From the UHGV virus genome UHGV-2168191: a stretch of 36,078 nucleotides of DNA; one strand, 5' to 3'. Position 1 is the stretch's first letter; each line of letters begins with the position of its first letter. Positions 1 to 3,000 of the stretch are shown here, piece by piece. Made by a program: the position numbers. This DNA is from a virus.

Positions 1-3000
1 ATGCAAACCGTTATTTTTGGTCGTTCGGGTTGCCCTTACTGTGTGCGTGCAAAAGATCTGGCTGAGAAATTGAGCAATGAACGCGATGATTTTCAGTATC
101 AGTATGTAGATATTCGTGCGGAAGGGATCACTAAAGAAGATCTACAACAAAAGGCAGGTAAACCCGTAGAAACCGTGCCGCAGATTTTTGTCGATCAGCA
201 ACATATCGGCGGCTATACCGATTTTGCTGCATGGGTGAAAGAAAATCTGGACGCCTGATCGTCTGACAAGCCCTCGCGTTGAGGGCTTTACTGATTTTTT
301 CTGTGCTGTGGTTTAAACAAACTACTGATAAATAAGAAACACAGTGCCCCCAGCGCACACCAGAACACCGCGCTTAGTAACCATGCCAGCTCTTGCCAGA
401 ATGAGCGCGTCGGTGAAAAAAACAGCCGCATAATGAGCATCGAACAGGGTGCCGCCAGCATTGCGCCAAACAGAGGTTTCAGGACTTCTCTACGCTGTGA
501 AAAGAAGCTGGCGACTGCTCCAGGAAGAATGAAAAATAGCAAGCCGATTTCAGGATGCCCGGCAGCCCGAAAAGCGCCTTTCATGTGCGTCGCCAGAAAA
601 AGGCACACCACAATGAAGAGGACAAAACAGCAGATTGCCCCCGCCCAACGTTGTTTATGTTTCACTCGTTCCTCCTGACACTGCGTCTATCGAACACATT
701 TTTCGCCAGTGTGGCGTTCAGTAAGATAAAGCCGCTTCGCATTCCATGCTAATATAGGCCAACGCAATTCATATAGCCGTTGATACCTAATGTGATTACA
801 CTAGTAAAATATATTGTTACTTTACTATCGTTTAGGTGCGCTGAATGAATCTGCGCCCTGAATTCTGGTAAAAAACATTATCGTAAATTACCATTTCTTT
901 CAACAGCTTACTAGTAAACAAGAAGTTAGCCTCCGTGAATATAAACGTCGCCGAATTGTTAAATGGGAATTACATTCTGTTATTATTTGTGGTCCTCGCG
1001 CTTGGGCTATGTCTCGGAAAGTTACGACTTGGTTCGATCCAACTGGGTAATTCCATTGGCGTTTTAGTCGTATCGCTGTTATTAGGCCAACAACATTTCA
1101 GCATTAACACCGATGCGCTTAATCTTGGCTTTATGCTGTTTATTTTCTGCGTCGGGGTCGAAGCCGGACCGAACTTTTTTTCCATTTTTTTTCGCGATGG
1201 GAAAAATTACCTAATGTTAGCACTGGTGATGGTTGGCAGTGCGCTGGTGATCGCCTTAGGGTTAGGTAAGCTGTTTGGCTGGGATATTGGCCTGACGGCC
1301 GGTATGTTAGCAGGCTCTATGACGTCGACACCGGTTCTGGTCGGTGCTGGCGATACACTGCGTCATTCCGGCATGGAAAGCAGGCAGCTCTCACTGGCAC
1401 TGGATAATCTGAGCCTCGGGTATGCCTTAACCTATTTAATCGGTCTGGTGAGTTTGATTGTTGGTGCGCGTTACTTGCCGAAATTGCAGCATCAGGACTT
1501 ACAGACCAGCGCCCAGCAAATCGCCCGCGAACGTGGCCTGGACACTGATGCCAACCGTAAGGTTTATTTACCGGTGATCCGCGCCTATCGCGTCGGCCCG
1601 GAGCTCGTGGCCTGGACCGACGGCAAAAATCTGCGTGAACTGGGTATTTATCGACAAACCGGCTGCTACATTGAACGTATTCGACGTAACGGGATTCTTG
1701 CAAATCCAGACGGTGATGCCGTGCTACAAATGGGCGATGAAATAGCGTTGGTAGGCTATCCCGACGCCCATGCCCGACTCGATCCCAGCTTCCGTAACGG
1801 TAAAGAAGTTTTCGATCGTGACCTTCTCGACATGCGTATCGTCACTGAAGAAGTGGTCGTTAAAAACCATAACGCTGTAGGTAAACGTCTCGCACAACTG
1901 AAGTTGACCGATCACGGTTGCTTCCTTAACCGCGTCATTCGTAGCCAGATTGAGATGCCGATAGATGACAACGTCGTGCTTAACAAAGGTGACGTTTTAC
2001 AAGTCAGCGGTGATGCCCGTCGCGTAAAAACCATCGCCGATCGCATCGGCTTTATCTCGATTCACAGCCAGGTCACTGACCTGCTGGCATTTTGCGCCTT
2101 CTTTGTTATTGGGCTGATGATCGGGATGATCACCTTCCAGTTCAGCACATTCAGTTTCGGCATGGGGAACGCTGCCGGGTTGTTATTCGCCGGAATTATG
2201 CTGGGCTTTATGCGTGCTAACCACCCGACCTTCGGTTACATTCCGCAAGGTGCATTAAGCATGGTGAAAGAGTTCGGCTTGATGGTGTTTATGGCAGGCG
2301 TTGGTCTGAGCGCCGGTAGCGGTATTAATAACGGCCTGGGCGCGATTGGCGGTCAGATGTTGATTGCCGGATTAATTGTCAGTCTTGTGCCCGTGGTTAT
2401 CTGTTTCTTGTTCGGTGCTTATGTATTGCGAATGAACCGCGCACTGTTGTTCGGCGCAATGATGGGCGCACGCACCTGCGCGCCGGCAATGGAGATCATC
2501 AGTGATACAGCTCGCAGTAACATCCCTGCGCTGGGCTATGCGGGCACCTACGCAATCGCCAACGTCCTGCTGACGCTGGCAGGGACAATCATCGTCATGG
2601 TATGGCCAGGATTAGGATAAAACTGAAGTTGCCCTGAAAATGAAATTTTTTTGCACAACCGCAGAACTTTTCCGCAGGGCATCAGTCTTAATTAGTGCCA
2701 CTGCTTTTCTTTGATGTCCCCATTTTGTGGAGCCCATCAACCCCGCCATTTCGGTTCAAGGTTGATGGGTTTTTTGTTGCCTGAAATTTATGCCTTTTAA
2801 AATCATGATGTTAGAAGCGCTGTTTTTTAACGATGGCGACAAATTGGCGGCAGCGTCAAAGAGAGAGCGCCACCTGTCCTGATTTCATTGGATGCGGCTG
2901 AACCGGATTTGACTCTTTTGGCGTTGCAATCGAACGAACAAAAGTTTCATGGGTAACAAAAGTATGGCTGCAGTTAATGTTCTGGCACTGGTTGTAACGC

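What the first reader, a model, noticed from the sequence alone, without database searches (positions are those of the whole stretch)
2621..2855. Prophage-host junction next to ybjL (attR candidate)
Host ybjL ends at 2620 and the P2-type ogr gene, which in P2 is the gene nearest attP, ends at 2856, so the right attachment site must lie in these 235 bp. The interval contains a strong 10-bp inverted repeat with T-tract (2733-2775) and no tRNA. I do not recall the ybjL 3' flank being a described integration site.
Basis: inference. Interest (0 to 1): 0.45.

Follow-up and report, generated by a model that had tools for sequence, protein, structure and literature searches.

The report
Known phage attachment site in rybB
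The interval holds the small regulatory RNA gene rybB, and the end of its terminator is a well-documented integration site of P2/Fels-2-like prophages in E. coli and Klebsiella. The host-phage junction is therefore real but ordinary.

Summary
ybjL ends at 2620, ogr ends at 2856, and the host-prophage junction lies between them.

Prophage-free E. coli match the window up to 2791. Phage attP (Klebsiella phage KP12) matches from 2765. The shared core is therefore 2765-2791, ATGGGTTTTTTGTTGCCTGAAATTTAT.

Host attB alleles differ to the right of the first 14 bp. None of about 1,106 lysogens carries a host-type variant at the ogr-side junction, whereas int-side junctions do carry it. Strand exchange therefore occurs within 2765-2778, inside the rybB terminator and U-tail, and rybB is rebuilt intact. 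Two 186-type integrase arm sites sit at 2832-2852.

About 20% of complete E. coli genomes, including CFT073, have this junction. The site is published under several names: insertion site "rybB ncRNA", hotspot #29, Kpn38RybB, PhiECO1-3 and phi-b0847. It is already known.

One side finding: the P2-like DNA stops inside a chimeric tail-fibre gene at about 12.5 kb and continues as an unrelated myovirus prophage. The window therefore has no int, no cox and no second core copy.

The parts
935..2620 (+). ybjL (b0847), aspartate:alanine antiporter family; host gene upstream of the site
   Evidence: ORF; RefSeq annotation; Pfam Asp-Al_Ex and TrkA_C.
2663..2690 (+). Putative sigma-E promoter of rybB: AGAACTT (2663-2669), 16-nt spacer, TCTTA (2686-2690), 6 nt before the RNA 5' end
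   Evidence: Read from the sequence and compared with the sigma-E consensus from general knowledge. This is inference and was not tested here. The stretch is identical in prophage-free K-12 and O157.
2697..2775 (+). rybB small regulatory RNA gene, 79 nt, intact
   Evidence: Rfam RF00110 at 105.3 bits covering the full model. K-12 annotates a 79-nt ncRNA rybB (b4417) starting 77 nt after the ybjL stop. The first 16 nt, GCCACUGCUUUUCUUU, equal the published RybB-16 oligonucleotide (PMC4911921).
2731..2775 (+). RybB Rho-independent terminator: stem 2731-2742 / 2760-2771 (perfect 10 bp at 2733-2742 / 2760-2769) plus U-tract 2770-2775.
   Evidence: Fold; Rfam structure line. The simple terminator scan misses it because the loop exceeds 8 nt.
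2765..2778 (.). ATGGGTTTTTTGTT: 14 bp invariant in every attB, attP, attL and attR examined. Inferred strand-exchange region; the true host/phage boundary lies here.
   Evidence: Alignments. No lysogen has a host-variant right half at the ogr-side junction, whereas int-side junctions carry host alleles.
2765..2791 (.). 27-bp common core ATGGGTTTTTTGTTGCCTGAAATTTAT: the identity between this junction, the G-type attB (O157, Enterobacter) and phage attP. Positions 2779-2791 are most likely phage-borne here.
   Evidence: It occurs once in the window, with 0 expected by chance. The first 19 bp are annotated attR in Klebsiella phage 4LV2017.
2792..2855 (.). P' arm of the phage attachment site, with an IHF-like match AATCATGATGTTA (2801-2813) and two tandem arm-type integrase sites, GATGGCGACA (2832-2841) and ATTGGCGGCA (2843-2852)
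   Evidence: Near-identical to the P' arm of KP12 attP (2 differences in 2792-2855). The arm-site pair matches the 186-type consensus tgccGCCActt (reverse complement) given in PMC3448106. A similar pair lies in the P arm of KP12 attP. The IHF match was read by eye and is inference only.
2856..3074 (-). ogr (late-gene activator), the last phage gene before the attachment site
   Evidence: Pfam Ogr_Delta, E 5e-22; annotation in S56 and KP12.
3165..12256 (-). Remaining P2-like tail module: D, U, T, E/E', FII, FI, serine invertase (10145-10717), invertible fibre-tip/tfa segment, tfa
   Evidence: ORFs; collinear with prophages of S56 and ECO2947 at 96-98%; Pfam Phage_GPD and Resolvase.
12253..13146 (-). 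Chimeric tail-fibre gene where P2-like DNA ends and a different myovirus prophage begins; crossover interval about 12491-12600
   Evidence: Mismatch profile: 0-1 per 50 bp against P2-like ECO2947 over 12250-12600, and 99.99% identity to scaffolds L026/L027 from 12491 onward.

Best explanation
The interval is the ogr-proximal junction (attR, B-O-P') of a Fels-2/186-type P2-like prophage that integrated by tyrosine-recombinase site-specific recombination into the 3' end of the sRNA gene rybB. rybB lies between ybjL and rcdA.

The phage attP carries its own copy of the last 11 nt of rybB (half of the terminator stem plus the U-tail) and 16 further nt. Strand exchange takes place inside the 14-bp ATGGGTTTTTTGTT (2765-2778). 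rybB is therefore rebuilt intact on the ybjL side. On the other side the same core completes a hairpin plus T-tract just downstream of int, read by eye as a terminator.

The P' arm (2792-2855) keeps the arm-type integrase sites.

Shown: the position of the junction, the core, rybB, and the allele pattern that places the exchange. Inferred: which protein binds where, and the exact cleavage positions.
For: - rybB is present and complete (Rfam 105 bits; K-12 annotation; fold).
- Empty sites match the window from 1 to 2791 and then run into the rcdA stop codon.
- KP12 has int-attP-ogr intact and matches the window from 2765 onward.
- Complete lysogens such as S56 have rcdA | int ... ogr | rybB-ybjL with the core at both ends.
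- 1,115 of 5,426 complete genomes, including CFT073, carry this ybjL-ogr junction.
- attB is polymorphic to the right of the 14-mer: ATCTAAAACTTAT in K-12, ATCTAAAATTTAT in others, GCCTGAAATTTAT in O157 and Enterobacter.
- A synthetic ogr-side junction carrying the K-12 allele has no hit better than 97.5% (4 mismatches) among about 1,106 lysogens. Int-side junctions carry the host alleles: 5 of 6 sampled E. coli lysogens are A-type.
- Arm-type repeats match the 186-type consensus in both arms.
- The cognate integrase has Int_N and Phage_integrase domains and is at least 99% identical in 15 E. coli and Klebsiella phage records. The next relatives are about 56% identical, and P2 Int is 39%.
- Published descriptions of the site were found.
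Against: - No integrase, cox/apl or second core copy exists in the window, so this particular junction cannot be shown to be recombination-competent in cis.
- The exchange position is inferred from population polymorphism, not from cleavage mapping.
- The int-side sample is small: 6 E. coli lysogens plus 2 other Escherichia lysogens, both G-type.
- No core-type inverted repeat flanking a 6-8 bp overlap could be identified with confidence.
Confidence: 0.93

Rival explanations
1. The whole 27-bp core up to 2791 is host DNA, and strand exchange occurs at its right end (about 2788-2791). The junction would then be at 2791/2792, as a plain homology break with O157-type empty sites suggests.
For: Homology with most listed empty sites runs without a mismatch to 2791. 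S56 has the variant core at the int side, which could be read as a phage allele.
Against: - The 'variant' is the K-12 host allele. It is found in many empty sites linked to the rcdA flank.
- No lysogen of about 1,106 shows it at the ogr side, although roughly half of the sampled empty sites carry it.
- Only TTAT would remain as the identical overlap, which is too short for a tyrosine-recombinase overlap region.
Confidence: 0.04
2. The hairpin is simply the ybjL transcription terminator, and the phage uses an ordinary intergenic site with no RNA gene.
For: The hairpin lies 110 nt downstream of ybjL on the same strand and could also stop ybjL read-through.
Against: - There is a full-length Rfam RybB match at 105 bits.
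- K-12 annotates ncRNA b4417 at the same place.
- The published RybB seed sequence sits at 2697-2712.
- The literature names the site rybB.
Confidence: 0.01
3. The junction belongs to a complete, excisable prophage. The apparent truncation at about 12.5 kb would be an assembly artefact: a false join across the tail-fibre segment shared with a second prophage in the same genome.
For: - None of 5,426 complete E. coli genomes spans the join.
- The join pattern is absent from the metagenome and viral collections.
- The chimeric fibre protein and the tfa protein are not on record.
- The two parents share a near-identical segment of about 100 bp, within about 270 bp of homology.
Against: - Assemblers usually break at such repeats rather than misjoin (general knowledge).
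- The fibre reading frame stays open across the join (297 aa with a Collar domain).
- The orientation fits simple recombination products.
Confidence: 0.35

Closest known systems
rybB-integrated P2-like (Felsduovirus-type) prophages of E. coli: phi-b0847 / PhiECO3 of CFT073, PhiECO1 (HS), PhiECO2 (ATCC 8739), Rybb*W, Rybb*B, Rybb*Cr, 'hotspot #29'
   Same: The same chromosomal site, core and ogr-side junction. CFT073 matches window 2300-3200 at 98.9% over its full length. The gene order ogr-D-U-T-E-FII-FI is the same.
   Different: Those prophages are complete (int ... ogr, about 33 kb). Here only about 9.7 kb of the tail end remains, fused to another prophage.
Klebsiella phages 4LV2017 (Elveevirus), KP12 and Kp48xx, and island Kpn38RybB of K. 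pneumoniae
   Same: The same core and P' arm (window 2665-3200 is 96.6% identical to 4LV2017 and 2765-3200 is 98.6% identical to KP12). The integrase is at least 99% identical to that of E. coli S56. The 4LV2017 record annotates attR over the first 19 bp of the core.
   Different: A different host genus, with about 95-96% identity over the tail module.
P2-type prophages at the sRNA gene cyaR (Wphi2 in E. coli W, the ogr-D' remnant in K-12, P2*B in E. coli B)
   Same: A P2-like phage targets an sRNA gene. PMC3032704 Table 2 lists 'cyaR RNA' as an insertion site with P2-type elements, including an ogr-D' remnant in K-12.
   Different: A different sRNA. The core and integrase of those elements were not examined here; P2 Int itself is only 39% identical to the rybB-type Int.
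Integration of 186, Fels-2/SopEPhi and HP1 into the 3' ends of tRNA or tmRNA genes
   Same: The same integrase lineage and 186-type arm sites. The logic is the same: the phage carries a copy of the 3' end of a small stable RNA gene, so the gene is restored after integration (PMC3448106).
   Different: The target is an Hfq-dependent regulatory sRNA, and the overlap with it is only 11 nt, compared with tens of nt of a tRNA gene.

Membership tests
Prophage attachment junction (attR, B-O-P') of a tyrosine-integrase temperate phage | Host homology ends and phage homology begins at a shared core when compared with an empty site and with attP | tested here: met
   Empty sites match to 2791 and KP12 attP matches from 2765.
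Prophage attachment junction (attR, B-O-P') of a tyrosine-integrase temperate phage | Direct repeat of the core at the other prophage end, next to int | tested here: not met
   In this window the core occurs only once, even allowing 3 mismatches, and no int is present. The feature is met in complete lysogens such as S56 and Escherichia sp. E1V33.
Prophage attachment junction (attR, B-O-P') of a tyrosine-integrase temperate phage | Arm-type integrase binding repeats in the phage arm | tested here: met
   GATGGCGACA (2832-2841) and ATTGGCGGCA (2843-2852) match the 186-type consensus of PMC3448106. A paired copy lies in the P arm of KP12. This is a sequence match only; binding was not tested.
Prophage attachment junction (attR, B-O-P') of a tyrosine-integrase temperate phage | Recombination activity (excision with attL, Int, Cox/Apl, IHF) | not testable with these tools
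   Needs experiment. No cognate attL, int or cox is present in the window.
RybB sRNA (Rfam RF00110) | Covariance-model score above the gathering threshold over the full model | tested here: met
   105.3 bits against 40, model positions 1-79 of 79.
RybB sRNA (Rfam RF00110) | Synteny between ybjL and rcdA, with the conserved 5' seed GCCACUGCUUUUCUUU | tested here: met
   K-12 annotation; seed at 2697-2712. rcdA itself is absent from the window because the prophage intervenes.
RybB sRNA (Rfam RF00110) | Sigma-E-dependent promoter | tested here: inconclusive
   AGAACTT-N16-TCTTA was read by eye at 2663-2690. There is no sigma-E scanner among the tools.
P2-like (Peduoviridae, Fels-2/186 group) prophage | Full gene set: int, switch, replication, head, lysis, tail, ogr | tested here: not met
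   Only ogr through the tail-fibre assembly genes are present (2856 to about 12500). Everything from the fibre N-terminus onward belongs to another phage.

The most novel reading that the evidence does not exclude
The window records a real recombination between the tail-fibre genes of a rybB-integrated Fels-2-like prophage and an unrelated, never-isolated myovirus prophage. The event strands a functional-looking attR at rybB.

Depending on where the second prophage sat, it implies one of two rearrangements:
- a deletion of about 80 kb of core chromosome from ybhB/bio through rcdA (direct orientation, as for the 99.99% identical copy next to ybhB-bioA in scaffold L026); or
- a terminus-spanning inversion of about 1.2 Mb (inverted orientation, as for the copy next to dacD in strain KCJ3K291).
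Probability: 0.55. Interest if true: 0.3.

Novelty: already known. Interest (0 to 1): 0.12.

Why it matters
For the finding as posed, very little. It is a correct rediscovery of a published integration hotspot, and its main value is as a correction. The RNA-free ybjL flank is really the rybB gene, so a check for RNA genes at an integration site should look for sRNAs as well as tRNAs.

Two small points go slightly beyond routine:
- Natural attB polymorphism across 5,426 genomes places the strand exchange within the 14 bp that overlap the rybB terminator and U-tail. It also shows that identity in the remaining 13 bp of the 27-bp core is not required for lysogeny.
- The neighbouring prophage is a recombinant of two prophages. 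If real, that implies a large deletion or inversion in the source strain.

Tried and rejected
- Direct-repeat search for a second core copy in the window found none. The repeat finder gave only chance-level families, and the pattern search with 3 mismatches found only 2765-2791.
- The simple terminator scan found nothing in 2400-3300. It allows loops of at most 8 nt, and the RybB terminator has a 17-nt loop with an inner hairpin, so this negative was set aside in favour of the fold and Rfam.
- I first read the S56 int-side core variant as a phage allele, which would put the crossover at the right end. I rejected this once the same variant turned up in empty sites, including K-12.
- I looked for the hybrid fibre join elsewhere. 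The exact-protein look-ups of the fibre and the tfa were not on record. The gapped join pattern gave 0 hits in metagenome contigs and viral contigs. No complete E. coli genome spans window 8000-20000.
- I looked for invertase-site inverted repeats with the repeat finder and found nothing clear. By eye, cix/gix-like sequences sit at about 10768-10793 and 12736-12761. The mismatch profile favours homologous recombination at 12491-12600 over an invertase-mediated join.
- A core-type inverted repeat flanking a 6-8 bp overlap could not be assigned.

Full report
**The observation**

The window opens with grxA (1-258, +), ybjM (288-665, -) and ybjL (935-2620, +). These are annotated as such in RefSeq genomes that match at 99% or more. 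On the minus strand, ogr ends at 2856; the gene as annotated in strain S56 corresponds to 2856-3074 (Pfam Ogr_Delta, E 5e-22). It is followed by P2 gpD at 3165-4265 (Phage_GPD).

CCCATCAACC (2733-2742) pairs with GGTTGATGGG (2760-2769), followed by T6 at 2770-2775. ARAGORN finds no tRNA.

A scan of the whole window against Rfam gives a single hit: RybB (RF00110) at 2700-2778 (+). It scores 105.3 bits against a gathering score of 40, E 7e-21, and covers the full model.

K-12 MG1655 annotates a 79-nt ncRNA rybB (b4417) between rcdA (b0846) and ybjL (b0847), starting 77 nt after the ybjL stop. That places rybB at 2697-2775 in the window. The first 16 nt, GCCACUGCUUUUCUUU, are the published RybB-16 seed oligonucleotide (PMC4911921).

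The "strong inverted repeat with T-tract" is therefore the RybB terminator. The fold of 2697-2778 gives -25.2 kcal/mol with z = -3.3. The simple terminator scanner misses it only because its loop limit is 8 nt. Upstream, AGAACTT-N16-TCTTA (2663-2690) resembles a sigma-E promoter. That reading rests on my own knowledge of the consensus and was not tested.

**Where the junction is**

- Of 5,426 complete E. coli genomes, 5,419 match window 2300-3200.
- 1,115 of them, including CFT073, cover the whole ybjL-ogr stretch.
- Nearly all other listed matches stop at window 2791.
- In a prophage-free O157 strain the sequence after 2791 continues as CTA followed by the rcdA stop codon.
- Klebsiella phage KP12 has int-attP-ogr intact and matches the window from 2765 onward.
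- The shared core is thus 2765-2791, ATGGGTTTTTTGTTGCCTGAAATTTAT. It occurs once in the window, with 0 expected by chance.
- Its first 19 bp are annotated attR in the record of Klebsiella phage 4LV2017.
- The core overlaps the last 11 nt of rybB (AUGGGUUUUUU).

Strain S56 shows the full arrangement: rcdA | core-int-cI-...-heads-tails-D-ogr-core | rybB-ybjL.

**Where strand exchange occurs**

The int-side core of S56 differs at four positions in its right half: ATCTAAAACTTAT instead of GCCTGAAATTTAT. I first took this to be a phage allele. It turned out to be a host allele:

- K-12 and many other empty sites carry exactly this sequence, linked to the rcdA flank.
- Other empty sites carry ATCTAAAATTTAT or GTCTGAAATTTAT.
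- O157, other Escherichia species and an Enterobacter species carry GCCTGAAATTTAT.

I then searched a synthetic ogr-side junction carrying the K-12 allele. Its best hit among about 1,106 lysogens is 97.5%, which is four mismatches. No lysogen therefore has a host-variant right half next to ogr, although about half of the sampled empty sites have that allele.

Conversely, int-side junctions carry host alleles. Five of six sampled E. coli lysogens are A-type. The one G-type lysogen also has a distinct rcdA-flank haplotype.

The exchange must therefore lie to the left of the polymorphic positions, within the invariant ATGGGTTTTTTGTT (2765-2778). It follows that 2779-2791 in this window is phage-borne DNA that happens to equal the G-type attB. 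Identity beyond 14 bp is evidently not needed for lysogeny. This is inference from population data, not a cleavage map.

**How the site works**

The cognate integrase is read from S56, because none is in the window.

- It has Int_N and Phage_integrase domains.
- It is at least 99% identical in 15 phage records from E. coli and Klebsiella.
- The next relatives are about 56% identical, HP1 Int is 49% and P2 Int is 39%.

In KP12, attP carries tandem arm-type repeats AAGTGGCGACA and AAGTGGCGGCA in the P arm, within the 3' end of int. It carries GATGGCGACA and ATTGGCGGCA in the P' arm. These match the 186-type consensus tgccGCCActt reported for this phage group (PMC3448106). In the window the P' pair is at 2832-2841 and 2843-2852, just before the ogr stop. 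An IHF-like match (AATCATGATGTTA, 2801-2813) was read by eye only.

Because attP carries the 3' half of a hairpin plus a T-tract, integration leaves rybB with its own stem and an identical tail. At the int side, the phage left arm (CCCGTTT-ACAT-AAATGGG-T6) forms a hairpin plus T-tract just downstream of int, which I read by eye as a terminator. This is the same logic as integration into tRNA or tmRNA 3' ends by 186, Fels-2 and HP1 (PMC3448106).

**Comparison with what is known**

The site is published several times:

- The E. coli W genome paper lists "rybB ncRNA" as an insertion site occupied by P2-type prophages Rybb*W, Rybb*B (which carries retron Ec86) and Rybb*Cr. It lists "cyaR RNA" as another P2-type site (PMC3032704).
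- The E. coli defence-island survey describes hotspot #29 as occupied only by Felsduovirus prophages integrated within rybB, in 109 genomes (PMC10121019).
- PhiECO1, PhiECO2 and PhiECO3 (HS, ATCC 8739 and CFT073 908870-942351) share one integration site (PMC3448106).
- The CFT073 prophage is known as the P2-like phi-b0847 (PMC3573123), and b0847 is ybjL.

The finding is therefore already known.

**The prophage next to the junction is not a complete P2-like prophage**

BLAST of the window against reference loci shows three blocks:

| Window span | Origin |
|---|---|
| 1 to 2791 | host |
| 2765 to about 12,600 | P2-like DNA (homology fades out by 12,761) |
| 12,491 to the end of the window (36,078) | a different myovirus |

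The second phage has Baseplate_J, Phage_Wedge1, a DUF3383 sheath, a DUF1073 portal, terL and terS. It is 99.99% identical over 12,491-23,787 to two gut-metagenome scaffolds, and 87-98% identical, in blocks, to a prophage of strain KCJ3K291.

The tail-fibre ORF (12253-13146) is chimeric. It has 0-1 mismatches per 50 bp against the P2-like ECO2947 prophage across 12,250-12,600, and 1 mismatch against the metagenome phage from 12,491 to 14,000. The crossover therefore lies at about 12,491-12,600.

No complete E. coli genome spans the join. The join pattern is absent from the metagenome and viral collections.

Orientation allows two simple origins:

- In scaffold L026 the second phage abuts ybhB-bioA-bioBFCD-uvrB in the same orientation as the P2-like late genes. 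A direct-repeat deletion of about 80 kb would give the window.
- In KCJ3K291 a relative sits next to dacD in inverted orientation. An inversion of about 1.2 Mb would give the window equally well.

A misassembly is not excluded. Either way, the window has no int, cox or attL, so this attR is stranded in cis.

**Verdict**

The junction is real, precisely placed and mechanistically ordinary. It is the known rybB attachment site of Fels-2-like P2 phages. Interest is low. The only mildly new items are the population-based placement of the exchange within the rybB terminator and U-tail, and the recombinant state of the adjoining prophage.

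Noticed in passing
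window 12253-13146 (crossover about 12491-12600); P2-like part 2765 to about 12600; second phage 12491-36078: The prophage is a fusion. A P2-like tail module (ogr to tfa) is joined inside a chimeric tail-fibre gene to an unrelated myovirus prophage that has its own sheath, tape measure, baseplate, head and terminase genes. No complete E. coli genome or metagenome/viral contig searched shows this join. A deletion of about 80 kb, an inversion of about 1.2 Mb, or a misassembly would each explain it.
   Followed up: partly
window 2779-2791; loci L002, L009, L010, L011, L019, L030: The 13 bp to the right of the rybB U-tail are polymorphic among E. coli attB sites. K-12 has ATCTAAAACTTAT, others have ATCTAAAATTTAT or GTCTGAAATTTAT, and O157 and an Enterobacter species have GCCTGAAATTTAT. 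Lysogens occur in both A-type and G-type backgrounds.
   Followed up: yes
window 13000-36078: The second phage's structural region has no near relative among 50,697 GenBank phage records; only an antirepressor cassette (about 19154-20751) matches Stx-converting phages at 94%. Relatives are nevertheless common as prophages in E. coli genomes. One 99.99% identical copy lies in a human-gut metagenome scaffold next to ybhB-bioA.
   Followed up: partly
window 10145-10717 (-), about 10768-10793 and about 12736-12761: There is a serine invertase (Resolvase + HTH_7) with cix/gix-like crossover sequences: TTCTTAAACGTTGGTTTGGGAGAA near the start of the alternative fibre-tip ORF, and TTCCCCCAAACCAAGGTATGAAAGAA inside the fibre gene. 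Homology with P2-like prophages ends exactly at the second site (12761).
   Followed up: partly
L006 (E. coli EcPF15, NZ_CP054227.1) locus 4466-4517 and onward: The same rybB site is occupied by a degraded P2-family element with hypothetical genes, a partial terminase and a P2-family capsid gene. Homology with the window continues 25 bp past the core (to window 2816) and then stops.
   Followed up: no
L013 (NZ_JBHLZP010001226.1, 724-bp contig of an Actinoallomurus acaciae assembly): This contig carries an Escherichia-type rybB-core-rcdA sequence. It is most likely contamination of that actinomycete assembly by E. coli DNA.
   Followed up: no
L001 12230-13282 (S56 integrase); phage records H86, H87: The rybB-specific integrase is at least 99% identical between E. 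coli and Klebsiella phage records, and the rybB flank in the Klebsiella phage 4LV2017 record is nearly identical to that of E. coli. This suggests one attachment specificity is shared across genera.
   Followed up: partly
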